From: a virus
Reading direction: 5' to 3' (one strand)
DNA: 50,142 nucleotides
Virus record (IMG/VR): IMGVR_UViG_3300035498_000744
Span: 64,001 to 114,142 of that record
This document shows, piece by piece, positions 321 through 48,873 of the stretch (position 1 is the first letter of the stretch; the number at the start of each line of letters is the position of its first letter). Below the pieces are notes generated by a model. It made no database searches and was not told the DNA's origin. It was given only the letters and a program-made list of their open reading frames with translations. The position numbers and the translations under genes were made by a program.

Positions 321-671
321 ATGACTCTTTATGAGATGAATAAAGCTAGTTATGCTTCTTTGCCCGAGTTAAATGAAGATGGTATTTAGTATGGAACTAA
401 CCTTATAAAAGAATATATTAAAAATACTAATAACCGTTATTATATGATTTTGAATCATGATATTCATTATTATACTCTATATAACAAAGAGCGTGCTACT
501 TCAAAAGAACTTGCTCAAAATGTTGTAGAACTGATGAGTAAACTTGGTTCTATTAGAGCCATAGAACTATCTGAAAACGAACAAGCAATTGAGTTTTGGA
601 TTATTGATATTACCGGAGAATGTAATATGTATGCTTTCTTCCGTTATGATGGCGGGGTGATTACTCTATGA
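321..671 (+). CDS. Hypothetical protein (116 aa); contains the ORF-track 444..671 piece
   Basis: ATG 321 lies 5 nt after a strong RBS, AAGGAGGA at 309-316. One in-frame TAG at 387-389 is read through. The gene ends TGA and its stop overlaps the next start (ATGA). Confidence 0.5.
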
Positions 672-922
672 ACGACGTAATCCTTATAAGTTATAATCCA
701 TTTGCCAGAGAGAGTGAAATTTTCATTTGTAAGAATGGAAAATCTAGAAGCGTAGCTATTAGTTCAGATTTAGATGACTTAGCTAAAAAGGTTATTTCTC
801 TCGCTTATGAAAACGAGATTTTCAGCGTGAAATCCAAGGCTCCCTATGAGACTTCTTTTGAAATCAAGCAACTGATTAACGAGTATGATTCTTTAAAAAA
901 GATTACAGTAGAAGGTATTTAA
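668..922 (+). CDS. Hypothetical protein
   Basis: ORF-track frame, ATGA-coupled to the upstream gene, TAA stop, no in-frame TAG. Confidence 0.5.
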   Translation: MNDVILISYNPFARESEIFICKNGKSRSVAISSDLDDLAKKVISLAYENEIFSVKSKAPYETSFEIKQLINEYDSLKKITVEGI

Positions 923-924
923 CT

Positions 925-1176
925 ATGTATTATACTTTAAAAACCACCACAACTTATCGTGTGCCCACCGTTGAAGACGCCCTTAAACTAAGGAAGTATC
1001 TTGAAAAGAATGCAGTCGGAGAGCTTAATTCTTTTACATACACGACGAAAGAGATCAAGATTAAAGGAGAAGTTGTCGAAACTTATCAGCTTGTAAAAGT
1101 AAGTTTTAATATAGACAACGAGAAAGAGCCAGAAGGCATCCAAACTGTTCTTATGGAGGAGAAGGCCAATGATTAA
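925..1176 (+). CDS. Hypothetical protein
   Basis: ORF-track frame, TAA stop; overlaps the dUTPase start. Confidence 0.5.
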   Translation: MYYTLKTTTTYRVPTVEDALKLRKYLEKNAVGELNSFTYTTKEIKIKGEVVETYQLVKVSFNIDNEKEPEGIQTVLMEEKAND

Positions 1177-1732
1177 ATTTGAAAAAGTTCAAAGATTTGC
1201 GAATGTTGACCTTCCTCTCCCGACACGCGCTACCTCAAATTCCGCAGGGTATGACTTTGTAGTGGCAGAAGATATTGTAATTCCTCCGTATGACTTTATC
1301 AAGACTAAGATTCAAGATGCTCTTTTTGAGAAAGACCGTCCTAAAGATTACTATGCTTTCATTAATCCTCTTACTCTTGATGAAATGGCCTCTGTGACCA
1401 AAGACCTCGGCACTAAAGTTACTTTGGTATCGACTGGCATGAAATGTCATCTTGAACCCGGGCAGTATCTTGAACTTAGCGTGCGGAGCTCCACTCCTTT
1501 GAAGCATTGGCTTATCATGGCTAATGGGGTGGGTATAGTCGATGCGGACTACTACAACTCAAGCGCTAATGAGGGTGAAATCTTCTTTCAAATCATCAAC
1601 TTAGCTCCATTCGCTATTCAACTTAAGCGTGGAGATAGAATCGGTCAAGGTATTATTAAAAACTACTTGACTATTGATGATGACTCCGCGGAAGGGACTC
1701 GAGAAGGAGGTTTCGGAAGCACTGGAACATGA
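1169..1732 (+). CDS. dut: dUTP diphosphatase (dUTPase)
   Basis: Carries the conserved dUTPase motif 5 (REGGFGSTG) at the C-terminus and an AGYD-type motif 3, plus an N-terminal motif by recall. Standard-code ORF ending TGA. Confidence 0.75.
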   Translation: MIKFEKVQRFANVDLPLPTRATSNSAGYDFVVAEDIVIPPYDFIKTKIQDALFEKDRPKDYYAFINPLTLDEMASVTKDLGTKVTLVSTGMKCHLEPGQYLELSVRSSTPLKHWLIMANGVGIVDADYYNSSANEGEIFFQIINLAPFAIQLKRGDRIGQGIIKNYLTIDDDSAEGTREGGFGSTGT

Positions 1733-2205
1733 ATCTTTTAGCATTAGACCAAAGTAGCCATGTATCGGGATACGCGATTTTTAAAGACGGAAAGCTCGAT
1801 TCTTATGGCAAGTTTTCTGTGGATGATGAATCAGTAGACAAAAGATTGGTAAAAATCCGAAAATGGCTAGCTGACTTAATCTTAAATAACTAGATTGATG
1901 AAGTGGTATATGAAGATATTCAATAGCAGAGCAATGTAGCTAACAATGTAAAAACTTTTAAAGTGCTTGCGGAAGTCTATGGTACTATCTCCGAATACCT
2001 TGAAGAATAGGGAATTCCACATAGTTCCGTTCTAGCTTCATCATGGAAGTCAACTCTAGGAATCAAAGGCCGCACACGCCAAGAATAGAAAAAAAATGCC
2101 CAATAGTTCGTAATTGATAAGTATAGCGTCAAGGTGGTGCAAGATATAGCGGATGCAATTTGCATAGGAGAACATCATCTTTCTCATTCCCATGGGGCTT
2201 GGTAA
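1729..2205 (+). CDS. RuvC-like Holliday-junction resolvase (158 aa, 5 in-frame TAG)
   Basis: ATG at 1729 overlaps the dut stop. Hand translation MNLLALDQSSHVSGYAIF...YEDIQ*Q...DIADAICIGEHH matches the RuvC fold and acidic residues. It is coherent only if TAG at 5 positions is a sense codon, and it ends TAA at 2203-2205. Confidence 0.65.
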
Positions 2206-4871: not shown

Positions 4872-5273
4872 TTAGAATTTAATTTGCGGAGCCTCGTTTT
4901 GAGATTCTTCAATCTAGGTTTGAGGCACCGCCGCGAAAGATTGTTTAAGTTGATTAATAGCTCTTTCAAACTCTTCTCTTGTTATGAAGTTTCCCGTTGT
5001 CTCTATTGGCGCAAGTTTTAGCTCGTAAACATTTAATGTCGAAGTACCATCTAGATTAATTTGTTTCGTATATATCTTCTTATTAGCGAGATCTGGGAAA
5101 TAGAATACGGAACCATCAAAGTCTACGCTAGTAGCTCTTACCTCATCAATAGAAGAAACAGGATGGCCTTTAATCCCTATTTGCGGCTGCGCCTAAACCT
5201 AAGCTTGGTCTATGTAGGGCTATCTTCCATAGTAAGAGATAGGTTGCTACTGTGGGTAATATGAATAGTTCAT
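4872..5273 (-). CDS. Gln/Tyr/Pro-rich protein (133 aa), 5 in-frame TAG
   Basis: Codon-by-codon translation gives MNYSYYPQ*QPISYYGR*PYIDQA*V*AQPQ..., with TAG codons lying inside a CAA/CAG-rich glutamine tract. Ends TAA. Confidence 0.45.
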
Positions 5274-5382
5274 TGGCATTTAGTTTTTCTCCTCCTTCAC
5301 ATTTTATTGGGTCTTTCACTAATATATGAAAAACTGGGAAAGTTCATTAACCTACTTTGCCAAAAATTTTTGTAAATTCTCT

Positions 5383-5778: not shown

Positions 5779-5812
5779 AAAAGGAACCTAAATATTAGGT
5801 TCCTTTATTCTT
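5779..5812. terminator. Hairpin terminator (AAGGAACCTAA...TTAGGTTCCTT)
   Basis: Perfect 10-bp stem with T/A runs on both sides. Confidence 0.5.
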
Positions 5813-6181
5813 GTTTACTTCTGCCTCAATTAATTGAGTTAAATAAACATTTAAATCTCCAGTAGTCTCGGTAATATATTCCTTTGCGTCATCAGATAAA
5901 ATAGCCATCACCGCAGTTAAAGTCTTATTGAAAGCTTCTTTTTGCGCTTCTTCATCGAAGGTATTAGAATTTTTAAGACTATTTACATAAGTCTAATTTG
6001 TAGCTATTACACAATCTGAAATAGTTTGATAGAGCATATCAGTATACTTCTGGGCAGTTTCATTATTGGTTGAATTTTTAATTTCATCTCGTTTAGCGGA
6101 GAGATAATCTACAAGATACTTGGTTAAAATACCAAGCAAAGGGATTATACATAGCTAGAAAATTTGAGTTAATAGATCCAT
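5795..6181 (-). CDS. Membrane protein (128 aa, 2 in-frame TAG)
   Basis: RBS AAGGAGGAATATTT then ATG. Stop TAA sits inside the hairpin. Confidence 0.45.
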
Positions 6182-8145: not shown

Positions 8146-8460
8146 TTAACCTATAGCGATATAATGATATATGTAATTTTTTGTATTAGCTTCTGTGTAA
8201 TAACCAGAGTCCGACTAGCTGTATGCCTTAAATCCAGTATCTACAATTTCAATAATTACAAGCTTTGAACTATCATAATGGGTGTAAGAAGGGGAGTTTG
8301 GTAGCGCGATTCCTCCTGCCGTTATTTGGTATTTAGTATTATCCCACCCAAACCCCATTTTTGCACTTGCTACAATTACTGCTTTAGGTGTAAAACCCAC
8401 ATTTATATACTAACTTGTCTTACCATCTCCTGTATAACTCCCTACAATAATTTGCATTGA
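8146..8460 (-). CDS. Promoterless, start-less alternative tail-fibre C-terminal cassette (variant B, about 104 aa). In frame with IR-R and silent in this orientation
   Basis: Minus-strand frame runs from IR-R (…LKTVLGISD) through SMQIIVGSYTGDGKTSQYINVGFTPKAV... to TAA at 8146-8148. There is no RBS or start, and the fibre-gene terminator sits directly upstream. Confidence 0.5.
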
Positions 8461-8565
8461 ATCGCTTATCCCCAACACAGTCTTTAAACTATCTAAGCTT
8501 GTTACCCCAGTTCCTCCTCTAGTAAGAGGCAGGGTCCCACTAGTTATTTTACTAGCTGGGAGATC
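8461..8565. repeat. Inverted repeat, right copy (105 bp)
   Basis: Reverse complement equals 6930..7034. Confidence 0.8.
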
Positions 8566-8580
8566 TTATTAAAGCACGAA

Positions 8581-8622
8581 AGGCGGACACTAGAAACATA
8601 AATCTAGTGTCCGCCTTTTTTT
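8581..8622. terminator. Intrinsic terminator (13-bp stem plus T8) abutting the tail-fibre stop
   Basis: AGGCGGACACTAG...CTAGTGTCCGCCTTTTTTTT. Confidence 0.6.
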
Positions 8623-9370
8623 ATTTGTTATCTATAACCGTCAAAACAATAGCATTAGTAGGAGTGTCATCAAGAAAATAAAATGTAATAGTCTTAGCAT
8701 CAGGGTCTGCATCAGCTTTAACTATCTTCATATAGTCAGTAAGATTTCCATCACTAGAAGCAAGAGTAACAATAGGAGGAACCTCTCCGCTCTTCCCGCA
8801 AGTCAATCCACTTACAATAGCACTATAAGTCGTATAATTGCCATCTGTTCCGTATGTGTCTTCACTAAAAGTAGGAATCGTAACCGTATAAGATGTAGTA
8901 GCTACCTCTTTGACTTTTGTATCAACCTCAGTCTTACTATATACACTAAGATTAGACCTGGCATTTGCGGCGGTCGTAGCTCCAGTACCGCCATTACCGA
9001 GACTAAGAGTCCCCACGGACGGAGTCCCATTGCTCAAGCTAACCGCGCCAGTGCCAGTTAAAGTAGAAGGCACATCGCTAGTTAAAACGACGATGCCTGT
9101 GCCAGTTAAGTTAGCTCCACTTCCTACCAAAATCTTCTTATTAGAGCTATCTTTAATGATAACGTCATCAACACTAACTTGCTTTGAGCCATCGCTATTC
9201 GTTAATACATCCGCCGAATAAGCATTAAGCTCTAACCTGGTATCAACATTATCAATCTTAACATCTACGAACATATGTGACTTATCAGTTGAAAAATAAA
9301 CGTATCCTTCCGTAAACGGAATCTAGTTAAGTAGCTCCTCTGGGCCATTATATGGTTTAAACAAAGCCAT
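8621..9370 (-). CDS. Tail-fibre protein (249 aa); 1 in-frame TAG
   Basis: RBS AAGGAGA then ATG 9370, TAA stop. Motif LSLGNGGTGATTAANARSNL is typical of phage fibres. Confidence 0.65.
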
Positions 9371-9386
9371 GATTAATTAATCTCCT

Positions 9387-11432
9387 TTATATCCTAGAAA
9401 TTGTGGGCACTGTGCCAGTTGCCCCCGCAAGGCTTGAAAAAGTACCCCATTCAGAAATCTTTTTATCTACTTCCTCTTTAGAATAGACTTCCGCACGTTT
9501 ATCTGTAATTAGCTATTTTAAAGTCGTTTCTAAAGCATTAACATAGGTTACGCTATAAGCTTTATTAGTATCTCCTTCAGCTACAGCTTCATTTTCAATA
9601 AGATTAGAAACACCACCGGTTAGCTAAACTCGACCCCATTCTCCACTAGTCATAGTAGAGTCGCTATACACGTAGAAATACCAATAAGAAATCTCGGTTT
9701 TTTCTACTAAATCTTGATAAGTTACCGCTACTACTCCATCCGCCGCAGGAAGCTCTCCAAGATCAGTTTTAATTTTCTCCCCGACCGAAGCAACCTTATC
9801 CTCAACGTCATTACTAGTATAAGTAAACGAACCTACAATTCTTAAAGAAGAACCAGTAGGGCCTTTAATAGTACCTAAAGCCTCATTCCACGTCTGTCCG
9901 TCCCACTTATAGAACTTGCCTTCTTCGGTATGAATGAAGATATCTCCGGGCTTAAGACTGCTAGTATCTGTGGGAAATACCATACCTATGTTAATATTGC
10001 TTCCTTCAGCAATAGTGAAATCAAAAGCTATAGTATCAGCATCCGCAATCTCTATTTCTACTTTACTATTGTTTCTCTCTTCAGAGCCCAAGAAAGTAGG
10101 AGTATTAACCTTAAACTTAGGTATTTTTGGCAAATTAAATTTCAGCTTCTAACCAAGCTCGTCAACCGCATTATCAAAAGTCTGCTCAACGCTAACTTCT
10201 GCCCGTTTATCGTCTCCTTCTCTTGTTAAATCAAAAGGAGAAAACCATTCTGTTGAGACTTGCGGGAGCGGCGCTCTTAGACAAGCTTTATAGGTAAATT
10301 CAGTTTGACTGCCCGTCGCACTAGTTACAAGATAAATAAAACCAGTTGGCTCGTTAATGTAATAATCACCAGTAGCATAGTTTAACACTTCGCTATCAGT
10401 AAGAATCTTAACGCCATTGCTATCTTTATATTTACTTCCAAGCAGTGAGCCATAGTAAAACCTCACCGCACGAGGCAGAGAAAACACGAGATCAGTATAA
10501 TATTTTTCTATCCCATCTTGAGTTTCATTTGATTCACTCTTGTCAACCTTAGGAGCTTGATCTGGAGCGAGTACAACCTAGGAATCTGCGAGCCTTACTT
10601 CTCTCGTAGAAGGCAAGGTAAAAATCAATGTTGGCTTATTTACATCATACCCAGCTTCTTCTTCTCCAAGAAGCCTAACTTTAGGAGCAGTATTCGGAGC
10701 ATTCTAAATAGCATCAGCAACCTACACTAATTGCGCTTGGGGGATAGAAACCCGCAAAATTGGCTCTTCTATAGAGCCAGTATCGTTGGGATAATCATCG
10801 GTGGGACCAATATCTAGCCTTACTTGCGGGGACTCCCCTGCGTCGAGCTTTGTATCTAGAACAGCCGTCCTAATAACCTAGGATTTCGGCAAACTAAATT
10901 TAAACTCTTTGGTATAGCCATCATTCGCTGCGGTCTCAAGAACTTCTATCGTTGGTGTTTCTCCGACTGCCAATGGAACATATTGCTATTCCCCATTCTT
11001 AAAATCCCAACTATGTGGTAAATTTAGCTAGATTTGAGGATAGTCAACATCGCTATAGTCTACACTAAAGCTAGGAGCTTCATTCGCAGCAATAGCCTAA
11101 GAAGTAAAATTCAACTTGGGAGTATTACCAGTCATAGAAGAAATTAATTCATAGCTCAATCCATTACTTTCAGAACTATGATCCTCATCATAAGCCTTTC
11201 TCCATAATGTAGAGTTATAAGTCTTACCATTATAGGCGGTTAAATCAATCTACCGATTCGCTTCATAACCGCTACCATTAGGCATTCCATATGATACAAC
11301 TACAAATTCTCCAACTTGAATTGGAGATACCCAACCTCGGTCTATATCATTATCTAATTCTACTTTAGTACTAAAGATGGTTTTAATGGAAAAATCCTGC
11401 CCATTTACACCACCGTAAAAACTATCTGCCAT
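9387..11432 (-). CDS. Large tail/baseplate structural protein (about 681 aa; many in-frame TAG)
   Basis: RBS AAGGAGGTG then ATG 11432. ORF-track pieces 11250..11432, 10149..10487 and 9624..10133 share one frame and join through TAG. Ends TAA at 9387-9389. Confidence 0.55.
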
Positions 11433-11446
11433 GGTTAAGCACCTCC

Positions 11447-12022
11447 TTATTCATAAATAAAGTCTATAATAATATTATACAAGTCTGTATAATTGGCATC
11501 TGAATTAATATTATCTTGATCTGGCAAGACATAAACGCCCTAAGTTCCTTGTTTGTATAGAGCTAGAGCTGCTTGATATTTCTCGTTATATTTAGCTTCA
11601 GCAGTATTATAAGCTTCCCAATAAGCCTAATACTCTTCAGAAGTTGTATCGGTAGGCTTAGAAGGTAAGTTATTCATTGCGATTTTCCTCTCTGCCTCAG
11701 CCTTCTCAAATCCGGCCATACCCTCAGCTATTAATCTCTATTCTTCATCTATATCTCTAGTATATTTCCTTGGTCTATCAAAATACATACTAGTTATAAC
11801 TATATCTTCATCGAGCTCGTATATTCCAGTCCTACCAACCATGATAGTCTTAGAATCATTTAATATAACCTTAGTTCCTGGCGGAGCTTGTATACCTAAC
11901 TTGTTTAGCTAGGTAGCTCCAATCGCTGTAACTATATCATTGTATATGTTTGTCCCGCTAGAAATATACTATCCACTAGCGGTATCTAATACGTTATAAT
12001 ATACTTGGCCAACATTAGCCAT
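11447..12022 (-). CDS. Tail-associated protein (191 aa; 5 in-frame TAG)
   Basis: RBS AAGGAGGT then ATG 12022. Hand translation is coherent; ends TAA. Confidence 0.45.
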
Positions 12023-12039
12023 ATCTCTCCCTTACCTCC

Positions 12040-15000: not shown

Positions 15001-16725
15001 TCCAGCAGCATACAAGCCACTAATTTGTCCAAAGGAGCGAACTTTCTCGTCGTTACTAAGATACTCAAATCCTCCAATGTCGATAATACCAAACTCATTT
15101 AAGTTTTCAAGAGTATTTTCCAGAACCTCATAAGCAGTAGCAGAAAAAGAAAATATCATGCGTCCAAGCTCTGTTTTAGGCGTTAATGATACATTATGTA
15201 AAACTACTATTATATTGCCTTCGGTGGGAGATTTATATAGCTTATAATCAAAATTATTCAAGAACTCTTCGACTTTTTCCCTAAAACGTCGTTCCATGTA
15301 TACATTATCTGGAGTTATATTAGTATTAAGTTCTTGATCCTCATCATATTTATCGGAAGAAATAACATTCTCTCCATCATACCAATAACCATTGCTGTTC
15401 AAAGAAAAGAAAGTCTAATCACTATCCATATGCAAGCTAATAGTTCCACTAATAGGAAATTCTGCATAATATGCTTGGCCATTTCGAACTAAACTTGGAT
15501 ATTTACCGCCAAGGGTGTCTTGCTTTGTAGTCAAAGTGGTATGCTTAAAACTACTTAGCTATTGGTCAAACTGCATTCTTAATTGCACGTCATCATGATA
15601 TAAGAAAGAATACTCAAAATCGACAGATCTAGCAAGCTTTTCGGTTTCATATAAAGGCGATGTCCGCAATCCCTCAGAATTTTCTTGCTAAATGGCATAC
15701 TTATATTTAACTCCGCTTTCAATAATAAAATCTTGAAAGATAAGTGTGTTATTAAAGTCTTGCTTATTGAATAGTAAGTATTTCAAATCTTCCCATATAG
15801 TAAAGTCTGTATATTCAGAAGCTCTAGAAATAACAAGATTGCCGCTGAAGGTTTCATCCGCAGTTAAGTATAAATTAATGCAACCATTTTCTGCATTATA
15901 AGGTAAGCTATCAACAGCAAAGAAAGATACTCCATCTAGCGTAAACAAATAGCTCTATGTAGCCATAAAGGTATAAGAGTTTGCGGAAGCCTCATATCCA
16001 TTTATTGTCTAGATATAGTATTCTACAGTATAGGTAGCGTTATTAATAAGAGCATACTAAAATCTATATGTATCAGTGGTCTCAACAGAACTATTATGCT
16101 ACAACCATCCAGTATCTTGGAGGACTTCCATTTCTTCGTCATATAAGATAAATCTATACTTATCTTCTGCTTCATTGTTTTGTTCTTCAATAGTACAAGA
16201 ACCAGTAAAAGTAGGAGTAAGAGAAGATTCTGTACGCTTCTTTGAGATAACATCTTGCTTAGCTTTTTCTGCGTTCTTTATATAAACAGTTGGCTTACTA
16301 ATAGCCTTAATGACCATAACAGTGGACCATTCAGAAAAAGCGCTGTTATCTATCTATTCTTTCTTCCAAGCAGCAAACTTTTCTACACTAGTATATTTAG
16401 CATTTGTACCGAAGCGTACCTAAATCTTATATAAATACCCAGGCTACCAAGTTTCGCTTAAATCACTTGAAAGAATTGCTACTCCGTAAGTCGTGCCGGT
16501 TATAGGCGCCGCAGGAGTATCTTTGTAAATAATACCATCTGGATATAAAGATGTATTTACAATGCTCTTATTATTAGACTATCTTACTACCCTAATCTAT
16601 ACATGGCCTATATCCTTAAGAGAAGTTATTTGCTACAAGGCAAAATAAACCATGTAACTATTTGTATCATATAGAAAAGCGGCTTGAGTGCTCTACAGGG
16701 TAGGAGGATAAAGACTAATGGGCAT
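12040..16725 (-). CDS. Giant tail-tip/baseplate structural protein (about 1561 aa)
   Basis: RBS AAAGGAGGTG then ATG 16725. The seven ORF-track pieces between 12232 and 16317 (e.g. 16099..16317, 12673..13845) all share one frame and are separated by TAG where checked. Ends TAA at 12040-12042, inside the next RBS. Not every codon was verified. Confidence 0.5.
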
Positions 16726-16794
16726 ATTAACCGCACCTCCTTTTTCTCTATAAATATTTTGAAAAAATAGCTTTATTAACTAACCATTATCGCC

Positions 16795-16830
16795 CAAAAG
16801 GAAATAGGGGAAGAATTACTCTTCCCCTAG
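16795..16830 (-). terminator. Hairpin terminator after a small gene
   Basis: AGGGGAAGAATTACTCTTCCCCT followed on the minus strand by a T-rich run. Confidence 0.45.
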
Positions 16831-17178: not shown

Positions 17179-17190
17179 TTTTAAACCTCC

Positions 17191-37779: not shown

Positions 37780-38832
37780 TCAATCACCAGTATTCGGATT
37801 GGGATTAACGTTGTCCAAGCTACCGGCAAGCTCAGTATCTACATAAGAGAAGATATTATTCGTCATCATGACGCCAACGCCAACCTTGCGGTAGACCTGA
37901 ATGTCTCGGCTCCAGTCCTCATTATCATCGACCTCGCGCATATGGGTATCGCCCTCGAAAGCAACCTTCACAGGTTGAGCATTGGCCCCAGCAGGAATAA
38001 CCCAACAATAGCCAGGATCGATAACCTTACGAGTATTAGTCTCATCCTCAACGGACTGGGGAAGAACAACCACTCGAATGCCCTTATAGTTAGCCAGATA
38101 ACCAGTGTTCCACATTGTATCACGCATGGTATCAGAAATCCAACCGTCTTGAGGAACAATCTTTACCGCAAACTCACGAGTGCAATAAATCGTTGGAGTA
38201 CCATAAGCAGAGGCAGTCTGCACCAGATAATCGAGAGTCCCCTCGTCGAAGCCAGCCACAGAAGCCCGATTAGCCTAAGGTAGAAGGTTTACAGAAGCCA
38301 TAAGAGCTTGAGCAATCTCACGATAAATAAGCTCATCCATACCATCCATAATAATTTGAATAAGCTCAGCGAAGTTCACCCGACCGTCAAGGAACTCCTC
38401 AAAACCAATCTTAGCGGCCGCACCCATAGCATTAGTCTGAAGCTCAAAACTCTCAGAACCAAGCTTAAAAGTCTCATAACGACCCGCCAGACCAGCATGA
38501 GTTACAAACTGCTTAGCCCGGGTAACGCCAGTACGACGTTTAAATACTGGACGAGTACCTTGCGGGAAAACTCGAATCTCGGCAAACTAGCCATAAGCAT
38601 CAATTAGCTTATTAGGAACGATATCGTCCATGGTCTACTCAAGCAGAGAGAATAGCTCATTTTTATTTTCGCGATACAGCTCATAAGTACCAGCAATCTC
38701 ATTCAGCTCATTGCGCAAAGTCTCATTTAAAGCGTTGTAGCTAAAAGATTCGCCGTTATAACTATAAGTCCCAGAAGGCTTAGCCGCAGCGACAGTCTTC
38801 ATAAGGGCAAGTAAATTAGTCCTATCTAACAT
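37780..38832 (-). CDS. Major capsid protein, lambda gpE-like (about 350 aa; 3 in-frame TAG)
   Basis: RBS AAAGGAG then ATG 38832. ORF-track 38635..38832 and 37780..38259 lie in one frame across TAG codons. N-terminus (DRTNLLALMKTV) and C-terminal region (YKGIRVVVLPQ...) resemble lambda E by recall. Confidence 0.65.
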
Positions 38833-40820: not shown

Positions 40821-42263
40821 TTATGACATACTTTCCGAATTAGCTAGAGTTTTGTCAGACTTTTCCGAATCTTCTTTTTCCGGACGTCCGCTTTCTTTGG
40901 TCTCTATTGCCTTGCTACTCATGACATTACTCGTGACCGGCGGAATCATTATCTGAGACAAATTAAGAACTTCATTCTCAAAGGTCATCGTGGCAAGCAG
41001 TTCTGACTAAGAATGACCTAAAGCTATTTGCGGAAGCATCTTTGAATAGCCCATCTATGCGTGCTCTTTGTATAACTTAGCAAGCTCTTTATGGTTAAAT
41101 TGCGTAGTCTCTAGAATCTATACTCTAAAAGAATAATGATTCTTTTTATCAAACTTTGTAATAATTCTATTCAAGAGTCCTTTAAATAACTACGGGATAT
41201 CTCTTATAGAAGCTTCATCAACTAGAATAGAATTAGTTGTAGCTAAGTTACCATCAGCATTAAATAAGTTGCGAGAAATGCCCGCATTATTATAAACTGT
41301 TCGCTCTACTTTTTCAAGATCGTCTGTTGAGGTAGAAGAATTTGCATCTTTTGTATCAATTTTCTCAATATCTGCAAAAGTAGTCAATACATCTACTCCA
41401 ACTGCTCGCTTAAGCATTGTGACTGCGTTATTGTGGATATCTCTAGCTTCGTCAACGTCAAAAACTAAATCTCCATTTTTATCTAATGGGAGCTTCTATA
41501 CAATAATTTTAAGTAACTGTTGCATGGTCTTTTGGCGGTCTAGTTCTTGAGCCTGGTCTAAGTCAATAATAGAAGGAATAACCCCAACAAGAGGAGGAAA
41601 CTCGCTATCATTTAAGCTTAACTTAAAAGAGGTCTTAACGTCAAGCGGATACCAGCAAGTTTTATCTCCTGGATAATCACCCCTTAATTTTCCCTCTTTA
41701 TAAGTCACATAAGCTTGCTAAACATCTTTAGGGAAAGTTTTCAGGATATAAATCTTTTGCTATGGTTGCGGGAAGTACACATCGAAGAATTGTAAATTAA
41801 GCTCTACAACAGGATCAACTCCGCTATAATAGCGGCTGCGGCAGTAGTTAGCCGGCAGTTTCTAAACTCCAAATTTGTCGCCAAAATCCACAATAATACC
41901 ATACGAAGCCCCTTCCTTGACGATGTCTAAAGCAAGGTTCCCGCAAATCCTCTTTACATCAGAATTATCAAGATAGAGCAATACCTTGGAAAAGTCATTT
42001 AATAACTTCTTCTCTTTTGTTGCATCAATCGTATACGGCGTGACATACCAATCATACCTATAGAGATATGCGAGGTATCGACAAAGCTCATAGTAAATGC
42101 CATTGCTTTCATAAAAATAGTTAGATATTTCTCTAAGAGTCTTATAGTCATGCTTATAAATAGCTCGAAGAACAAAACCTTTGTCCCCATAGCTTGAGTT
42201 TATTTTTTTATAACTGCCAAGATTCACAGAAATATCATCTACAGTCCGCAGTCCAACTCGCAT
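40821..42263 (-). CDS. Portal protein (about 480 aa; about 8 in-frame TAG)
   Basis: ORF-track pieces 41862..42263, 41496..41708 and 41190..41417 share a frame and join through TAG. Hand translation continues to TAA just before the scaffold RBS. SPP1 gp6-like features by recall. Confidence 0.6.
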
Positions 42264-42350
42264 TTTTGCATAATCAGCATTTCCAATATCGAATCCCTTA
42301 GCTCTAATATCCTCCTATCGGTGTTTTAACAAAGAATATCACCTCCTTGT

Positions 42351-42711: not shown

Positions 42712-42773
42712 TTGTAACCACCCCCTTCTTTATTATATCTTAAAAAAGTCTAGGTTTAATTATCTAGTTTTGT

Positions 42774-45704
42774 CATCCGAGGAACATAAAATCTGAGAAG
42801 TTATGCTTGCGGCGCTTGCGCTTATTGTCTTCATTTTCTCGGATATAGTAGATTGCATAAAGCAAAGAAGAAAATTTATCATGCCCAATATTCCTATTAG
42901 CAGGTTTTAATTTGATATTAATCCCCTCATTCTCCTCGCGGAGGTTGAGCATTTCTTCTTTGAGTATGTCTGTTAGCTGATAGGGAATAAGATACTCTGC
43001 TCTCTATTCAGGGGTCATAGATTGCCCCATTTTCTTACCCATTAGTTTTGCTTTTGCTACCCGCTCAGATATCAAAAACTTAATTTTCCCAGACTCAATC
43101 TAACTTTGAAGCGTTGAATAAGCAGTAGAATCAATGGGAGCATTAGCTTTAATGACATAAATAGCGTCATCTTCTGTATCATTTGTACGAAATCGCTTAT
43201 ACTCCTAATCTGCATCTGTATAAGTTCCGCCTATCACCCCAAATGGAGGATAAACATCTCCTTCTTCTGTTATTTGACGTTTAACCATATAGTCCATAAG
43301 ACCAATCCCTACAATACCTTCCACATAGCTCGCTATTTCTATGTGCGTTCTTTTATGAACTGCTTATAGTTTCCCATAAGTTGAGACTATCTCTTTCTCT
43401 CAATGAGAGATCTTCCATTTCGACCACCAATCGCTTGCGGCCTACGTCTTTCGACTAGTCGTTGAACCTTTTCTTTCATCAATAGAAAAGAACTTGGCTG
43501 CGGATTAGCTTGCTTATTAAAGTTTAGCTTTCCCGCAATTAAAAAGATTTGCATCATGCAGTCGCCTACATGAGGGGCTATTTTATTAACCCGTTTCCAT
43601 CTATGACTAAACGTCTTGCCTTATAACGATAATATAACTTTTTAAGCTTGATAGCTTGTTCTTCAAAATGTAGTTCATTTTCCGCAAAAACATAAAGATT
43701 AACTAAAGTCTTTATAGAACTACCATCTAATTGCGGAGTTACCTTGATTATTGTTGCCACTGACTAACAATCTTTACGTCCTACGTCTACACCTATTACA
43801 TAATAAGCTTGGCTTGAAGACCGACCTGAATATTCATATTCGGGTTGATTAAGTATTCTGTTCCGGTCAAATTTCTCGCCATTAAAGAATGCTCCATCTA
43901 CCGTTCCAGTCCACTTGCTTGACATTTATCTTTAAAACTATTCGCAACATAGTTTCCCTTTCGGCTCCACATTTCTGTAGAGATGAGACTATATCATACA
44001 TTATTATTCTACGTATTTCTTAATAATAATGTTTTTGTGCTTCGATTTAAGGGAATTTCACCCACCCCATTAGCTTGGGCCCTACTCCTATTGAACTTAC
44101 GTCCCAAAGGGATAGTCGTTGAACCTTCTTGTTATTTTAACAAGCTTGGCTGCCGATTGTCCAATCCTAAATAATTTTACCATCCATGTGCTATTACGCA
44201 CACTGCTACGCCAAAAAGCTGCGGTTATTTAGGCTCTAAGGAGTTTCCGGCAATTCACAAAATTTATAGAGTACACAAGTTTTATACTCTCTTTCAAAGC
44301 CAGCTTCATTAAACGTAGGATCTCGCTTTAAGTCATTTAAAAAATTCTTTCCCAGCATCCCCATCAAGACTGGAACTCTATAAGTTCCGCCCATAATAAA
44401 GGCTTTACCAGGTTCTGTAACCATCTACACTAGTGTTTGAATCAACTTCTAGTAGCTAAAAGTATTCTTATAGCCAGCCGTTGTAATGTAAAGCTAAGAC
44501 TGGTTTAATACCTCGTCTTCCTAGACTGTCCCATCTAAACACTAGCGTGAAACATTCATCATCAAGAGAAAAGAAACTCTTGGACTATCTCATCAACTAC
44601 TGCCGAAAATAGTTGCTGCGCGCTTCGGACAGCGACAAACTCTGCTCTACTGGGTTACACTCATCACCCTTAGTCTCTACACCTTCCTTTTTTAAGGCTT
44701 GGCACGGGATTCTCTATATTCCCCGTTAGCTTGAATCGCTAGATTCAAACACCCTTTTGTCACAGGTTCACGCAGTTATTCACTTGTAACTCACGCTACA
44801 AGGCCCCAATGTTGTTCAGGGATTAAAACTTCTTGCAAGATCTATTGGTCTACGCCAACGCATTCCTCTATGAGCCCAGCATGTTTACGCCGTCCTCTCG
44901 AGCTTTCACGCGCCGCTATATTCTCAAAATCCGACCCATTCTTAAATACATATCGACAATGGTCTTTGCCTTCTGCGGTTCCTGACCCTCGTGTCCAATT
45001 GATCTCTCTTTTAAATGCGGGAATCTTTTCACAAATATCCTTAACCTTCTCTTGCAGTATCTATGCAGCTTGCTCCTTGCCTCCAGCCGTCGAGAATACG
45101 TGCGCTCCTGGATAGAGTATACAACGTATCACCTAGACTAATACGGAAAGGAAACTTTTTGAGTATGCCATTTGCTTTCTATTTAGTTCGCTACGCTAAA
45201 TACGTTCTCTTATGAACTGCTGTATGTCACCATACAGATAAGACTATATCTTCACCCTCGGCTTTACGTTAGGGGCCTACTTTTTCGGATACCAATCGCT
45301 TATATCCTACTCCCTCTCAGGATAGTCGTTGAACCTTTTCTTCCATCAATAGAGAAAGAACTTGGCTGCTGATTGTCTTGGTCAAGATGTCCCAGCAATT
45401 AAATAGGTCCTTCATTAATGTTTCCATCAATGCACGCTATACTCTAACGTGGATACACGGCATATACATACTTATATCTAGCTGCCACGCGCAGGAAAAC
45501 ACGCTAATAAAAGAAGAGATGGAAGGTTAATTCCTTTTCTGGGTCTCCGCCTGTCTACATAAAATCTACAAATAAATCTGGATACTCTCGCCAGAAAGCA
45601 ATATATTGCCTCATTATAGGTTTAACTGCTTCTAGCCTTTCTTTTGAGATTCCTACTTTTCTGGTAGCAATAGAAGAGGAATCTATTAATGATTCTAAGC
45701 TCAT
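42774..45704 (-). CDS. terL: Terminase large subunit, interrupted by about 4 self-splicing-intron-like elements. Exons roughly 45704-45470, 45170-44781, 44466-44194, 43928-43578, 43360-42774
   Basis: Exon 1 starts at an ATG overlapping the upstream stop (ATGA) after RBS AAGAGGAGG. Exon segments align in order with T4 gp17-type ATPase and nuclease motifs by recall: YQR, PRQS then KS, NGS, EEC, GVDVG, GIGLMDY. Exon boundaries are approximate. TGA at 42774-42776. Confidence 0.55.
43361..43577 (-). ncRNA. Group I intron-like element in terL
   Basis: On the minus strand, in 5' to 3' order: P-like AATTGCGGGAAAG, Q-like AATCCGCAGCCAAG, R-like GTTCAACGACTAG, S-like GAGATAGTCTC. These are consensus elements recalled from memory. 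Begins at the in-frame TAA of exon 4. Confidence 0.5.
43929..44193 (-). ncRNA. Group I intron-like element in terL
   Basis: Q-like AATCGGCAGCCAAG, R-like GTTCAACGACTATCC, S-like GATATAGTCTC. Confidence 0.45.
44467..44780 (-). ncRNA. Structured intervening sequence in terL (intron of uncertain class)
   Basis: Exon 2 ends TGA at 44781 and coding resumes near 44466. Contains a perfect hairpin (TTGAATCGCTAGATTCAA), a GCTAACGGGGAA / AATCCCGTG element repeated near 46950-46990, and an S-like GAGATAGTCC. Confidence 0.3.
45171..45470 (-). ncRNA. Group I intron-like element splitting the terL Walker-A region
   Basis: P-like AATTGCTGGGACA, Q-like AATCAGCAGCCAAG, R-like GTTCAACGACTATCC, S-like AAGATATAGTCT. 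Confidence 0.5.
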
Positions 45705-46126: not shown

Positions 46127-46258
46127 TTACTTTCACACTAAGCGAAAGGAAACCATTTCAGTTTTCAGAGGCTTCGTTTCCTAAAACCTCACTACGTACC
46201 AATAGTAGCCTTACTTCCCTGCCCAGAAGGCCTAGGGAATAGTCGATACAGATTCAAA

Positions 46259-46900
46259 TTAAATATATTTAACTATATAGCCGTGATAAGGTTTGCCTTG
46301 AAGAATATATTTTTTTAGAGTATCGGTACTTCCATTCGGGCTTAATCCAACGAAAACTTTAAAATCACGTTGTGTTTCAAATTCCCGAATAAAATTTCCA
46401 TTCAAATCATAAATAGCTACTCCTTTTGCAGTAGGAGCTTTTCCCCCTTGCTTAGCTTCGCTCATTTTCTTTTTAGATTCTTCATTATGGTGTCGTCCCC
46501 ACCAAGGATGCTCCTCTTTGCAAAAATGTTTGCCATAAAAATAATTCTTTTCTCCCTTAGCAGCTTCCGAAAGCTTTCTTTTTCGCTCTGCTTGAGCTTC
46601 CTCGCTCATACCAGCACAAGGATTACTGTTGAATCCACCTTCGGCTATATTATAAAAATTCTCGTTAGCAACAGCATCATAAGCTTGAATCCATTTTCTT
46701 TCAGCAATGTTCATGCTTTCATAATCTTGGCATATCTCAAGTATCTCTTTCTTAAAATTCTCTTTACCATATTTGGAAACAGCTTTCTTAAGCAAGCTTC
46801 CACTTCCAATATAGCTATCATCAATTTCTCCATGATGCTGGCCTATATATTGCTTGCCATCAATGAGGTTAGTAGTTAAATAAATGTAATACTGCTTCAT
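46259..46900 (-). CDS. GIY-YIG homing endonuclease (I-TevI/Seg-like)
   Basis: N-terminus KQYYIYLTTNLIDGKQYIGQH is a GIY-YIG motif. RBS AAAGGAG then ATG 46900 (the track's TTG 46909 is less likely). Basic C-terminal DNA-binding region. Standard-code ORF. Confidence 0.7.
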   Translation of the reverse strand: MKQYYIYLTTNLIDGKQYIGQHHGEIDDSYIGSGSLLKKAVSKYGKENFKKEILEICQDYESMNIAERKWIQAYDAVANENFYNIAEGGFNSNPCAGMSEEAQAERKRKLSEAAKGEKNYFYGKHFCKEEHPWWGRHHNEESKKKMSEAKQGGKAPTAKGVAIYDLNGNFIREFETQRDFKVFVGLSPNGSTDTLKKYILQGKPYHGYIVKYI

Positions 46901-46990
46901 ACTACACAAACTCCTTTAAATATATTTAATAAGTTTTCCACGGGATTACCATGCCACTAAACGTGGTTTAGGCTTCCCCGTTAGCTCGTT

Positions 46991-47716
46991 TTAAGAAACG
47001 AACCCCAGTGGTAACTGGTAAAGTTTTTCACGGTCCACTATTTCGAACCTGCCGCTTTTCATCAACGTATCATACGCTTTAGACATTTTTTGGAAGCTAT
47101 CAATATCCCCAGCATCGAGCAACTAATTTGCTTTAAGACTTGTTTTACAAATCATAATAAGTGTGTCTTTATGCCCAGCAGTCTATATATCATAAGACTG
47201 CATAAAATCTCGATACAGTTGTTCTAACTTTACCCACTCTTCTGGGCGATAGCCTCTCCCCCATTTAAGCCTAAGCATGAGTCTATCTTCTTCAGTTAAC
47301 TGTTCTGAAAACTCATCTTCTACCCATTCTGGGTCTTCATATTCGGGAACTTCTGCCGCCTCTACTTCAATTATAGGTTTTTGCGGCGTTCGGTCTATAG
47401 AGAGCCTTTCCTAGACTTCTTCATCTCTCAATCCACTAGCTTTCATTGCTTCAATGGTTCTTTGTCGAGACTCTTCCTCGATTTTTTCCGAATCGGCCCA
47501 TGTATATCTATTCCATTGCCGCAGTTTCATCTTAGAAAGATATCTGCCTAAAATAGTTACTCCACTAACCTTTGTAGGGTCTTTTCCATATTTTTCCAGA
47601 AGGGAATCCCATTCCTCTTTGATATAGGGGACATCAACCTCTTCCAAAATCCACTTATAGGTTTCTGGATCCCAGTTATCTACGTGCATAGTTATACATT
47701 TCTTGCAAGTAGTCAT
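46991..47716 (-). CDS. Hypothetical packaging-region protein (241 aa; terminase small-subunit candidate)
   Basis: ORF-track 47411..47716 continues through one TAG to TAA at 46991-46993. A mid-point stop I first called turned out to be an indexing error. Confidence 0.4.
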
Positions 47717-47811
47717 TACGCCATCAGGAGGATATCTATCTAACCTTTTAGATTTATAGAACTAATTTTCCTCCATGGTTTTACCGCATTTCTAACAATA
47801 ATGCTATGCCA

Positions 47812-48873
47812 TTACGCACCTCTTTTCTTATTTCGGCAATGCTTACATATACTATACAAGCCATCCTTGCTCATACCATTTCTAGAAAAGAATTGCGCAT
47901 GGGCGGGTTTTAATTCTCCGCACTTGGTACATCGTTTCATTGGATAGTTATTAGTCTTATATTCCCATGTTAAGAAGTCCTCAGTAGCGGTTTCCGCAAT
48001 TATCTTAGGAATTTTATTCCGCCATAAGGCCGACAAGTATTCTACAGTATAAGTGGTACCAAATTCATCTTTCAAAAGGTCTCGAATCTCACTATTTTGC
48101 TTTTTATCTATTTTTAGCTCTACTATACGTTGATAAATAGGATATTCCTTTAGCGCTTTATCACAAGTTTCCTCAAACGCCTAAAGCAAGTACCACATAT
48201 CTCCGCTGAATTGATCATAGCTGTCTTCTTTAAGTTTAGAATAGTTACATAAGATTGCTGATACGACTCTAGAATCCATAAGAGAAATACCACTTACCAT
48301 GACCTTAGGCCCTTCGGCAGTCTTTTCTAAATGAGAAGTATCATCAAGAGGTAAAAGATTCTATCCCCCTCTCGTTATTTTACACAAAGATATCGGTCGT
48401 TGATAAGCTTGCTTTATAAGATATTGGTCTTTTCGCATTTCGATTAAAGCTTTCTTTATAGTATAAGCCTACCTTGTTCCATTCGCACGTTTTAAAGCTT
48501 TTTCCCAGTCATTAATTGCTTCCCGCAATTGCCGCAAAGAAGGTATTGTGTCTAAATCATGCTAGGTAATGGAAATCTTTGGCTAAAGTAACGCATTTTT
48601 ATTTTCTACTATTAGGCTATAAATGCCATCTTCGCCATTTTCCATCTACGCTGCAAGCCCTTCAAAGGAATACTCTCTCTTATTAACTGTAGCCAATCTA
48701 TTTTCGGTTAAAATCTTCTTTTCTTTCTTCTCTTGTTTTTCCATACAAAGAATTAAATAATCTGCTAATGTCTCTAAATAAGCTGGAGTAATATCAGGGG
48801 TTTCCGCAATTATTTTTTCGACTAAGGCTTTACGTTCTTCTGGAGACTCGATAGTATAATCTAATTTGGTCAC
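47812..48873 (-). CDS. Protein with C-terminal HNH/zinc-ribbon-like motif (about 353 aa), first gene of the minus-strand operon
   Basis: RBS AAAGGAG then a GTG start. ORF-track 48646..48873 and 47812..48075 share a frame, joined by a TAG-only hand translation. C-terminus CTKCGELKPAHAQFFSRN...CKHCRNKK. Confidence 0.45.

What the first reader, a model, noticed from the sequence alone, without database searches (positions are those of the whole stretch)
321..48873. TAG is a sense codon across the phage genes (likely TAG to Gln recoding)
TAG repeatedly interrupts frames that are otherwise continuous, have strong RBSs and are recognisable by homology. Examples are the RuvC-like gene (5 TAG in 158 codons), the lambda-E-like capsid gene (3), portal (about 8), the tape-measure gene (roughly one per 15–20 codons), and a codon-checked fibre stretch at 18036-18450 (4 TAG, no other stops). 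Every recoded gene ends in TAA or TGA. In the terminase gene a TAG sits where T4 gp17 has the conserved Q of its RQ motif. In the 4872..5273 protein the TAGs fall inside a CAA/CAG-rich Q tract. This makes the phage a stop-codon-recoded one, like crAss-like and Lak phages, but with a Firmicutes-style gene set.
Basis: partly seen in the sequence, partly recalled or inferred. Interest (0 to 1): 0.95.

Follow-up and report, generated by a model that had tools for sequence, protein, structure and literature searches.

The report
Gut phage reading TAG as glutamine

Summary
With TAG read as sense, non-overlapping ORFs of at least 100 aa cover 89% of the window instead of 34%. The longest ORF grows from 413 to 2,900 codons. 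About 250 TAGs lie in frame, with no in-frame TAA or TGA.

TAG→Gln is supported without circularity. In 36 related loci that never carry in-frame TAG, 39% of the 77 alignable TAG positions have a Gln majority. The window's own CAA/CAG codons score 40% and all other codons 2.5% (p≈6e-28).

TAG supplies 40% of Gln codons in the lysis, structural and packaging block. It supplies 8% in the metabolic block and none in a homing endonuclease gene.

The window has no tRNA. Close recoded relatives carry a tRNA(CUA) in an array about 30 kb beyond the right edge.

Three reader details are wrong:
- The tape-measure gene has one TAG per 38 codons, not 15–20.
- The fibre stretch has 3 TAGs, not 4.
- The terminase "RQ" TAG is the first triplet of a group I intron.

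This is a new member of a known kind (Borges 2022; Babkin 2023, phAss-1 group).

Side finds are four group I introns in the terminase gene and an unusual long-arm suppressor tRNA family.

The parts
321..48873 (.). Span of genes with in-frame TAG read as sense. 39 of the 50 ORF calls have at least one TAG, and about 250 TAG codons remain after intron correction.
1729..2205 (+). RuvC-like Holliday junction resolvase, 158 aa with 5 TAGs. Codon 120 is Gln (CAA/CAG) in all 16 standard-code relatives and TAG in 47 recoded ones.
   Evidence: phrog_159/827; codon table
1169..1732 (+). dUTPase, TAG-free (6 CAA/CAG). It belongs to the TAG-poor rightward metabolic block.
5795..6181 (-). Holin, 2 TAGs.
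   Evidence: phrog_13712
4872..5279 (-). Small protein with a Gln-rich N-terminus. 4 of its 5 TAGs fall among CAA/CAG codons.
8146..22085 (-). Tail, baseplate and fibre gene block (g16–g24), 75 TAGs in total. The largest gene is 18036-22085 (1,349 aa, 28 TAGs).
   Evidence: homologues in phAss-1
22140..30821 (-). Tape-measure-like protein, 2,893 aa with 77 TAGs (one per 38 codons). It is the orthologue of the phAss-1 3,155-codon ORF that has 110 TAGs.
37780..38832 (-). Probable major capsid protein, inferred from position only. 350 aa, 3 TAGs, 51% identical to a phAss-1 ORF.
   Evidence: phrog_4088 with no assigned function; no PDB hit
40821..42332 (-). Portal protein, 503 aa with 9 TAGs. 7 of the 9 positions are CAA, CAG or TAG in relatives.
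   Evidence: phrog_2739
42773..45704 (-). Terminase large subunit gene in five exons. Approximate exon coordinates are 45704-45447, 45168-44818, 44562-44278, 43919-43587 and 43297-42773. The spliced product is about 582 aa with 14 TAGs. TAG codon 67 (FY-TAG-RVFLR) is an invariant Gln in 55 of 55 relatives.
45169..45446 (-). Group I intron 1, inserted between 'YPR' and 'AYSKS' of the P-loop-like region.
   Evidence: Rfam RF00028, 97.8 bits; junction read directly
44577..44835 (-). Probable group I intron 2. The Rfam hit is weak (24 bits, E = 0.0045), but it fills exactly the gap between exons 2 and 3.
43965..44293 (-). Group I intron 3.
   Evidence: Rfam RF00028, 86.2 bits
43363..43597 (-). Group I intron 4.
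   Evidence: Rfam RF00028, 98.1 bits
46259..46909 (-). GIY-YIG/NUMOD3 homing endonuclease gene, TAG-free (0 of 9 Gln codons). It sits in a roughly 970-nt insertion that splits a gene which is one ORF in relatives (pieces 46991-47812 and 45701-46024).
47812..48873 (-). Sigma-factor-like protein with a C-terminal zinc-finger/HNH-like region, 6 TAGs.
   Evidence: phrog_5767
49357..50127 (+). FolD-like methylene-THF dehydrogenase/cyclohydrolase, TAG-free. It is the first gene of the rightward block that leads to the tRNA array in relatives.

Best explanation
The window is part of a large (probably 100–150 kb) long-tailed siphovirus genome from gut or rumen-type metagenomes. It is related to phAss-1 and to large Firmicutes phages. 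In this genome UAG has been reassigned from stop to glutamine (genetic code 15).

**Shown here.**
- TAG is in frame about 250 times in otherwise intact, conserved genes.
- It substitutes for CAA and CAG as a synonymous codon would.
- It supplies 38% of all Gln codons.
- It is concentrated in the lysis, tail, head and packaging genes.
- TAA and TGA are the only terminators.

**Inferred from close relatives and the literature.**
- Early genes, which avoid TAG, are translated under the host's standard code.
- A phage-encoded tRNA(CUA) from a tRNA array outside this window is then expressed and charged with Gln by host enzymes.
- That tRNA outcompetes release factor 1 at UAG, which allows the TAG-rich late genes to be translated.
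- Recoding therefore acts as a timer, or safety lock, on virion and lysis gene expression.
For: **ORF structure.**
- ORF coverage rises from 33.7% to 89.2% and the longest ORF from 413 to 2,900 codons when TAG is read as sense.
- There are 259 in-frame TAGs against no TAA or TGA, and nearly every ORF has a ribosome-binding site.
- The same sequence occurs in five samples.

**Gln assignment.**
- 77 TAG positions align to 36 standard-code loci. Q makes up 35.6% of aligned residues against a 4.2% background.
- Q is the majority residue at 39% of TAG positions, 40% of CAA/CAG positions and 2.5% of other positions (p = 6e-28).
- The log-likelihood for Q is -185, against -230 for the next best residue, E (first set).
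- In recoded relatives, TAG positions read CAA 30%, TAG 15% and CAG 13%. This mirrors the profile at CAA positions.
- The portal shows the pattern position by position.
- Invariant Gln sites fall on TAG at TerL codon 67 and RuvC codon 120.

**Full-length proteins.** The spliced TerL with TAG read as an amino acid aligns end to end with intact standard-code TerL at 50–54% identity.

**Terminators.** Standard-code relatives end orthologues in TAG 9% of the time, including TerL of L052 and L046. In recoded relatives TGA use rises from 5% to 28%.

**Module bias.** TAG supplies 40% of Gln codons in the late block and 8% in the metabolic block (p = 0.0007). A recoded relative's helicase, PolIIIα and guanylate kinase genes have 0 TAG among 78 Gln codons.

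**Suppressor tRNA.** Ten of the 16 tRNA-array loci fetched from recoded close relatives carry one tRNA(CUA). Four of the other six end too early, and two hold no tRNA at all. One of the three phAss-1 tRNA-Sup(CTA) genes is its homologue (PMC10607447).

**Model.** The timing model is taken from Borges et al..
Against: - No tRNA of any kind is present in the window, and the rest of this phage's genome could not be recovered. The suppressor is therefore inferred from relatives that share about 66% amino-acid identity.
- No release-factor or aminoacyl-tRNA synthetase gene was seen in any region examined.
- The relatives' suppressor has a long variable arm, which is a Ser/Leu/Tyr-type feature. Its charging with Gln is therefore not obvious from its structure.
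- About 60% of TAG positions fall on variable, non-Gln columns. That is also true of the window's CAA/CAG codons.
- There are no proteomic data.
- Expression timing is not measured. RuvC and the sigma-like gene carry TAGs although they are not structural genes.
Confidence: 0.9

Rival explanations
1. TAG is a sense codon but encodes something other than Gln. One candidate is Ser, Leu or Tyr, inserted by a class-II-like suppressor. Others are Glu, Lys or pyrrolysine.
For: The relatives' tRNA(CUA) is 91 nt long with a 21–24-nt variable-arm hairpin. That length is typical of Ser, Leu and Tyr tRNAs, whose synthetases largely ignore the anticodon (textbook knowledge). ARAGORN labels it 'tRNA-Pyl'. 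E, S and K are the next most frequent residues opposite TAG, at 7–9% each.
Against: The log-likelihoods are Q -185, E -230, S -240 and K -243. TAG sits on strictly invariant Gln sites. It exchanges with CAA, which is two nucleotide changes away, as often as CAA exchanges with itself. The suppressor has G73 and a weak or mismatched 1:72 pair, which are Gln-type acceptor features from textbook knowledge. It is no closer to Ser, Leu or Tyr tRNAs than to unrelated ones. No pyl genes were seen.
Confidence: 0.05
2. The TAGs are real stops. The genes would then be pseudogenes, assembly or sequencing artefacts, or a degraded prophage remnant.
For: Under code 11 the structural genes are fragmented. The terminase gene looks broken at first sight.
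Against: There are no in-frame TAA or TGA codons among about 15,300 codons, whereas both are common off-frame. The sequence is identical in five samples. TAG positions are shared with relatives and align with Gln. The terminase breaks are explained by four group I introns. Dozens of related 100–150-kb contigs show the same pattern.
Confidence: 0.01
3. The phage encodes no suppressor of its own. TAG would then be read by a host that itself decodes UAG as sense, or by a co-infecting helper phage's suppressor tRNA.
For: No tRNA is present in the window. Borges et al. detected suppressor tRNAs in only about 40% of TAG-recoded genomes. Babkin et al. found recoded relatives without a detectable tRNA-Sup.
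Against: Ten of the 16 array loci fetched from recoded close relatives carry a tRNA(CUA), and none of the other six holds a comparable stretch of the array. Early and replication genes avoid TAG, which is expected only if the infected cell starts out with TAG as a stop. Standard-code sister lineages use TAG as a stop.
Confidence: 0.05

Closest known systems
phAss-1 (OQ749652) and the monophyletic group of about 130–140-kb gut siphoviruses described by Babkin et al. 2023 (PMC10607447). NCBI files phAss-1 under 'Caudoviricetes code 15 clade'.
   Same: Both use TAG→Gln in TerL, portal, tape-measure, fibre and other virion genes. Almost the whole structural module is shared: portal 36–37% identity, TerL 37.5%, capsid-position protein 51%, and a tape-measure gene of about 3,000 codons. 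The long-arm tRNA(CUA) of this window's close relatives is homologous to one phAss-1 suppressor, at 80% identity with identical anticodon and T arms.
   Different: This phage is not in the genus Phassvirus. There is no nucleotide-level match and the proteins are only 20–55% identical. The gene order differs. Here TerL carries four group I introns. The window itself contains no tRNA.
Recoded gut phage clades of Borges et al. 2022, in particular 'Agate' (about 154 ± 27 kb, with mixed standard and recoded members).
   Same: Standard-code and recoded members sit in one family. [quoted passage not shown] Intron and homing endonucleases are present, and the GC content is low (37%).
   Different: Membership could not be tested because no Agate sequences were available. 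Borges et al. report an intron endonuclease that is preferentially recoded in a TGA-recoded Agate phage, whereas the endonuclease gene here is TAG-free.
crAss-like and Lak phages (TAG→Gln, validated by metaproteomics in PMC9523058).
   Same: They share the same codon reassignment and the same late-gene bias.
   Different: The lineage and the host phylum (Bacteroidota) are unrelated. The portal search returned only phages of Firmicutes hosts plus uncultured gut phage records.
Large standard-code Firmicutes siphoviruses: Enterococcus EF1 and VRE9, the Lactococcus 949 group, and Brevibacillus Sundance.
   Same: The portal is homologous at 27–30% identity. Genomes are 125–142 kb. They carry tRNA arrays, FolD, NrdD/G and intron-borne homing endonucleases.
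   Different: They use the standard code.

Membership tests
Stop-codon-recoded phage, genetic code 15 (TAG→Gln) | Many in-frame TAGs in conserved essential genes, such that reading TAG as sense restores full-length ORFs and normal coding density | tested here: met
   (coverage 33.7% rising to 89.2%). Spliced TerL is full length against standard-code orthologues.
Stop-codon-recoded phage, genetic code 15 (TAG→Gln) | TAG positions align preferentially with Gln in homologues that use the standard code | tested here: met
   Across 77 positions, Q makes up 35.6% of aligned residues against a 4.2% background. Q is the majority at 39% of positions against 2.5% for non-Gln codons (p = 6e-28). Q is the best-fitting residue.
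Stop-codon-recoded phage, genetic code 15 (TAG→Gln) | TAG is not used as a terminator, so genes end in TAA or TGA | tested here: inconclusive
   Within the window this is true by construction. Indirect support comes from terminator usage: 24–28% TGA in the window and recoded relatives, against 5% TGA and 9% TAG in standard-code relatives.
Stop-codon-recoded phage, genetic code 15 (TAG→Gln) | A phage-encoded suppressor tRNA with anticodon CUA | tested here: inconclusive
   The window has none and its flanks could not be retrieved. A tRNA(CUA) is present in 10 of the 16 tRNA-array loci fetched from close recoded relatives and in phAss-1.
Stop-codon-recoded phage, genetic code 15 (TAG→Gln) | Recoded codons enriched in late (structural or lysis) genes, with early or replication genes compatible with the standard code | tested here: met
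   TAG supplies 40% of Gln codons in the late block and 8% in the metabolic block (p = 0.0007). Replication genes of the recoded relative L092 have 0 TAG among 78 Gln codons.
Stop-codon-recoded phage, genetic code 15 (TAG→Gln) | Peptide evidence for Gln at TAG | not testable with these tools
   This needs metaproteomics of the source samples.
phAss-1-containing monophyletic group (Babkin et al. 2023) | Homologous TerL, portal, capsid and tape-measure module | tested here: met
   blastp against phAss-1 TAG-sense ORFs gives TerL E = 5e-125, portal E = 3e-101 and capsid-position protein E = 1e-124. No phylogeny was made.
Genus Phassvirus | About 80% or more nucleotide identity and shared synteny with phAss-1 | tested here: not met
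   There is no megablast match. Proteins are 20–55% identical and the gene order differs.
Agate clade (Borges et al. 2022) | Placement in the TerL or whole-genome phylogeny of that study | not testable with these tools
   No Agate sequences were accessible. There is only a resemblance in size, mixed codes and module bias.
crAss-like / Lak phages | Homology of the hallmark portal gene | tested here: not met
   Portal tblastn hits are phages of Firmicutes hosts plus uncultured gut phage records.

The most novel reading that the evidence does not exclude
The tRNA that reads UAG in this phage family may be a structurally new kind of glutamine-inserting tRNA. It has a Gln-type acceptor end: G73 in 43 of 47 variants and a weak or mismatched 1:72 pair. 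It also has a conserved, covarying 21–24-nt variable-arm hairpin with a near-invariant YCUGAAG core. It is found on 101 metagenome contigs and is shared between phAss-1 and this window's relatives.

If the arm is a dedicated recognition element, it would be a new mechanistic component of phage code switching. It could recruit or evade a host or phage factor, block mischarging, or protect against anticodon nucleases. The code-15 phage papers listed in the literature search contain no mention of a variable arm.
Probability: 0.3. Interest if true: 0.6.

Novelty: new member of a known kind. Interest (0 to 1): 0.3.

Why it matters
**Practical value.** Standard gene callers shatter this genome. Under code 11 only a third of it is covered by ORFs of at least 100 aa. 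Two PHROG families of 'unknown function' match only the N- and C-terminal parts of its terminase, and may therefore derive from fragmented gene calls. Annotating the genome with code 15 and splicing four introns recovers a normal virion module.

**Biological value.**
- It adds a densely recoded lineage to a family that holds both standard-code and recoded members. TAG supplies 38% of Gln codons here.
- It gives a clean natural comparison set for how reassignment spreads. Recoded relatives range from about 3 to 17 TAG per 1,000 aligned codons.
- The comparison shows a terminator shift from TAG to TGA and TAG-free replication genes.

It does not change the current picture of phage recoding.

Tried and rejected
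- **Recovering the source contig.** The FolD protein look-up found nothing. The dUTPase look-up gave only 2–3-kb contigs. Exact edge strings were absent from the viral, metagenome and genome collections.
- **Close annotated relatives.** Megablast against GenBank phages found no match.
- **Pfam on all proteins.** It was almost uninformative. Only dUTPase, GIY-YIG/NUMOD3, FolD and an FNT fragment matched.
- **tRNA hunting.** There were none around the portal, within 10 kb either side of dUTPase or of the helicase gene, or in two steps beyond FolD. The array turned up on the last viral scan.
- **Ancestry of the suppressor.** Similarity to other tRNAs was not informative.
- **PDB sequence and profile searches.** Neither the capsid-position protein nor TerL gave a hit. 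The 'lambda-E-like' and 'T4 gp17 motif' comparisons therefore remain untested.
- **The endonuclease-bearing insertion.** Rfam gave only noise when it was searched alone.
- **Prophage with host flanks.** This was considered and rejected. The FNT-like and FolD genes at the window edges are conserved, in the same order, in the related phage contigs.

Full report
**1. The observation**

The window is 50,142 bp with 37% GC.

- Under the standard bacterial code the longest stop-to-stop ORF is 413 aa. If TAG alone is read as sense it becomes 2,900 codons. Reading TGA or TAA as sense gives no such gain in maximum length.
- With TAG as sense, ORFs tile the minus strand almost without gaps from about 8.1 to 48.9 kb.
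- I called a working set of 50 genes. Most have a Shine-Dalgarno-like site. Together they cover 92% of the window.
- The set contains 259 in-frame TAGs, no in-frame TAA or TGA, and terminators of 38 TAA and 12 TGA. In the two off-frames all three triplets are common, at 218–831 each.
- On a like-for-like measure, non-overlapping ORFs of at least 100 aa cover 33.7% of the window under code 11 and 89.2% with TAG as sense. After removing run-on into introns, the in-frame TAG count is 250.
- Five short contigs from five different samples match the left 3 kb at 99.85–100% identity, TAGs included. The samples are two Logan runs and three JGI metagenomes. The TAGs are therefore not sequencing errors.

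**2. What the genes are**

- PHROGs identifies a portal protein, several virion structural proteins, a holin, a RuvC-like resolvase, a dUTPase, a sigma-factor-like protein, a GIY-YIG homing endonuclease and a FolD-like enzyme. Pfam sees only a few of these.
- Annotated relatives of the portal are large siphoviruses of Firmicutes: the Lactococcus 949 group, Enterococcus EF1 and VRE9, and Brevibacillus Sundance, at 27–30% identity. The closest named record is the human-gut phage phAss-1, at 37%.
- Almost the whole structural module has an orthologue in phAss-1. TerL matches at E = 5e-125. The capsid-position protein is 51% identical. The tape-measure orthologue is a 3,155-codon ORF with 110 TAGs.
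- The FNT-like fragment at the left edge and FolD at the right edge are conserved in related phage contigs, so they are not host flanks.

**3. Which amino acid TAG encodes**

I avoided database proteins, which could have been translated with code 15 already. Instead I worked from the DNA of related loci.

- A portal-based scan of IMG/VR returned 67 loci with 42–77% portal identity, on contigs of up to 148 kb. A dUTPase-based scan returned 80 more.
- The relatives fall into two groups. One group has no in-frame TAG in up to about 4,000 aligned codons. The other has 3–17 TAG per 1,000 aligned codons.
- The first group really does use the standard code. Its orthologues end in TAG 9% of the time, and TerL of L052 and L046 stops at TAG at the conserved length.
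- I used only the 36 standard-code loci for the test. 77 of the window's TAG positions could be aligned to them.
- Gln makes up 35.6% of the aligned residues, against a 4.2% background.
- Gln is the majority residue at 39% of TAG positions. The figure is 40% for the window's own CAA/CAG codons and 2.5% for all other codons (binomial p = 6e-28).
- I fitted the TAG profile to each amino acid's observed substitution profile. Gln scores a log-likelihood of -185 and the next best residue, Glu, scores -230 (first locus set).
- Among recoded close relatives, TAG positions read CAA 30%, TAG 15% and CAG 13%. This almost exactly mirrors what CAA positions do.
- Two strictly conserved sites make the point. 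TerL codon 67 (FY-TAG-RVFLR) is CAA, CAG or TAG in 55 of 55 relatives. RuvC codon 120 is CAA or CAG in all 16 standard-code relatives and TAG in 47 recoded ones.
- In the window, Gln codons are CAA 340, TAG 259 and CAG 85.

**4. Distribution of TAG**

- TAG supplies 40% of Gln codons in the leftward lysis, tail, head and packaging block.
- It supplies only 8% in the rightward metabolic block (FNT through g7, excluding RuvC, plus g49 and FolD). The difference is significant (Fisher p = 0.0007).
- The homing endonuclease gene has 0 TAG among 9 Gln codons.
- In the recoded relative L092, the helicase, the 1,298-aa PolIIIα and the guanylate kinase genes have 0 TAG among 78 Gln codons. NrdD has two TAGs.
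- TGA terminators are 5% in standard-code relatives, 28% in recoded ones and 24% here.
- These patterns match the published picture, in which early genes are compatible with the host code and late genes need the code switch.

**5. The decoding machinery**

- The window has no tRNA, and its own flanks could not be retrieved.
- I walked outward in the close recoded relatives, which share about 66% amino-acid identity with the window.
- To the left of dUTPase lie NrdG, NrdD, a guanylate kinase gene, PolIIIα and a helicase gene. There are no tRNAs there.
- To the right of FolD lie a Pth2-like gene and about 20 kb of small genes. There are no tRNAs there either.
- Beyond that lies an array of 16–26 tRNAs plus a tmRNA. 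Ten of the 16 loci fetched there contain one tRNA with anticodon CTA. Four of the others stop after only a few tRNAs, and two hold none.
- ARAGORN also finds the published phAss-1 suppressors, so the earlier negative scans are meaningful.
- The relatives' suppressor is 91 nt long. It is 80% identical to one of the three phAss-1 tRNA-Sup(CTA) genes, with identical anticodon and T arms.
- A pattern search found this type on 101 metagenome contigs, from human gut assemblies and other JGI metagenome series.
- Across 47 distinct variants the 21–24-nt variable region forms a hairpin. There are 22 different compensating stems around a conserved YCUGAAG core. G73 is present in 43 of 47 variants. Position 1:72 is a mismatch or a weak pair wherever it could be read.
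- By textbook knowledge, G73 and a weak 1:72 pair are features of tRNA-Gln identity, whereas a long variable arm is typical of Ser, Leu and Tyr tRNAs. The tRNA structure alone therefore does not settle the amino acid. The codon evidence in section 3 does.
- No release-factor or synthetase gene was seen in any region examined.

**6.

- The tape-measure gene has one TAG per 38 codons, not one per 15–20.
- The fibre stretch 18036-18450 has 3 in-frame TAGs, not 4.
- The terminase argument is mistaken in its detail.
  - The gene is a single ORF of about 580 aa in the eight relatives whose gene organisation was examined. The exceptions are L055 and probably L062, where the first exon is separate.
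  - Here it is split into five exons by four group I introns. Three have strong Rfam hits (86–98 bits). The fourth is weak (24 bits) but falls exactly in the remaining gap.
  - Exon 1 ends ...CCA CGT (Y-P-R) at 45447. Intron 1 begins TAGAGT at 45446 and ends ...AAATG at 45169. Exon 2 starts GCA TAC TCA AAA (A-Y-S-K).
  - Relatives read PR|AYSKS at this point, with no Gln. The TAG after 'PR' is therefore intron sequence.
  - The spliced protein has 582 aa and 14 TAGs. It aligns end to end with standard-code TerL at 50–54% identity.
- The 'lambda-E-like' label and the comparison with T4 gp17 could not be tested. Neither the capsid-position protein nor TerL has a sequence-detectable relative in the PDB, even with a profile.

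**7. Comparison with what is known, and novelty**

- TAG→Gln recoding in phages is established. It has metaproteomic validation in crAss-like phages (PMC9523058, listed).
- Borges et al. surveyed recoded gut phages, including Firmicutes-infecting clades. They described the late-gene bias, families that mix standard-code and recoded members, and detection of suppressor tRNAs in only about 40% of TAG-recoded genomes.
- Babkin et al. described phAss-1 and a monophyletic group of about 130–140-kb gut siphoviruses. Some of these use TAG→Gln with tRNA-Sup(CTA). NCBI files phAss-1 under 'Caudoviricetes code 15 clade'.
- The window is a divergent member of that broad group. It is not in the genus Phassvirus.
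- I therefore rate it a new member of a known kind and set interest low to moderate.

Three side observations are less ordinary:
- four group I introns in one terminase gene;
- a second gene split by a TAG-free GIY-YIG endonuclease insertion that Rfam does not recognise as an intron;
- the conserved long-arm tRNA(CUA) family. The code-15 phage papers listed by a full-text search contain no mention of a variable arm.

**8. Limits**

- The suppressor, the genome size and the expression timing are inferred from relatives and from the literature.
- The locus counts are not phylogenetically independent, although the position-weighted statistics reduce that problem.
- Exon boundaries other than the intron 1 junction are approximate.
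- Gene starts come from a simple heuristic.

Noticed in passing
window 42773-45704 (minus strand): The terminase large subunit gene is interrupted by four group I introns, at about 45446-45169, 44835-44577, 44293-43965 and 43597-43363. Intron 1 sits inside the P-loop-like 'PR|AYSKS' motif. In the relatives examined the gene is one uninterrupted ORF, except in L055 and probably L062, where exon 1 is separate.
   Followed up: yes
window 45701-47812 (minus strand): A gene that is one ORF of 390–410 aa in relatives is split here into pieces at 46991-47812 and 45701-46024. The roughly 970-nt insertion between them carries a GIY-YIG/NUMOD3 homing endonuclease gene (46259-46909) with no TAG among its 9 Gln codons. 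Rfam does not recognise the insertion as a group I intron, so it could be an unusual intron or a free-standing endonuclease gene.
   Followed up: partly
L270:12087-12177, L269-L283 and L284-L363; phAss-1 L074:12442-12532: Close relatives and phAss-1 share a 91-nt tRNA(CUA). Its 21–24-nt variable-arm hairpin covaries (22 distinct stems) around a conserved YCUGAAG core. G73 is present in 43 of 47 variants, and 1:72 is weak or mismatched. The pattern matches 101 metagenome contigs. One relative (L280) has a 75-nt version without the arm.
   Followed up: partly
L270:14669-15013, L269:12931-13275, L274, L281, L283: The tRNA arrays of the recoded relatives include a phage-encoded tmRNA, with tag peptide DNNYFDSHMAA or DNDYFDSHMAA. 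ARAGORN also predicts an odd tRNA with a 4-base anticodon (tgtt).
   Followed up: no
L013:3547-3978 (minus strand), just downstream of the FolD orthologue: Relatives encode a protein that resembles a Pth2-type peptidyl-tRNA hydrolase next to FolD, judged from its sequence only. It is another translation-related gene, in the standard-code-compatible block that leads to the tRNA array. No family search was run on it.
   Followed up: no
window 3-281; L092:8497-9129: A formate/nitrite-transporter-like membrane protein gene is conserved in this phage family, immediately after NrdD/NrdG. It looks like an auxiliary metabolic gene rather than a host flank.
   Followed up: partly
spliced TerL against PHROGs: phrog_15503 (profile length 245) and phrog_24618 (profile length 230), both of 'unknown function', match only the N-terminal part and the C-terminal part of this terminase. 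They may have been built from gene calls fragmented by TAG codons or introns.
   Followed up: partly
L052:7667-9403, L046:7696-9435: In two standard-code relatives the terminase gene terminates with TAG at the conserved length. Across orthologues, TGA terminators rise from 5% in standard-code relatives to 28% in recoded ones.
   Followed up: yes
window 17191-18027 (minus strand): This 278-aa protein has a Ser/Gly-rich N-terminus and contains no Gln codon of any kind (no CAA, CAG or TAG). Its TAG-free status therefore says nothing about the code.
   Followed up: no
window 6381-7502 (plus strand) and 7503-8145: A fibre-like gene with repeated GGTG(L/V)TS motifs lies on the plus strand, between the lysis genes (5.8-6.2 kb) and the tail genes (from 8.1 kb), both of which are on the minus strand. 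It is followed by about 640 nt with no convincing ORF.
   Followed up: no
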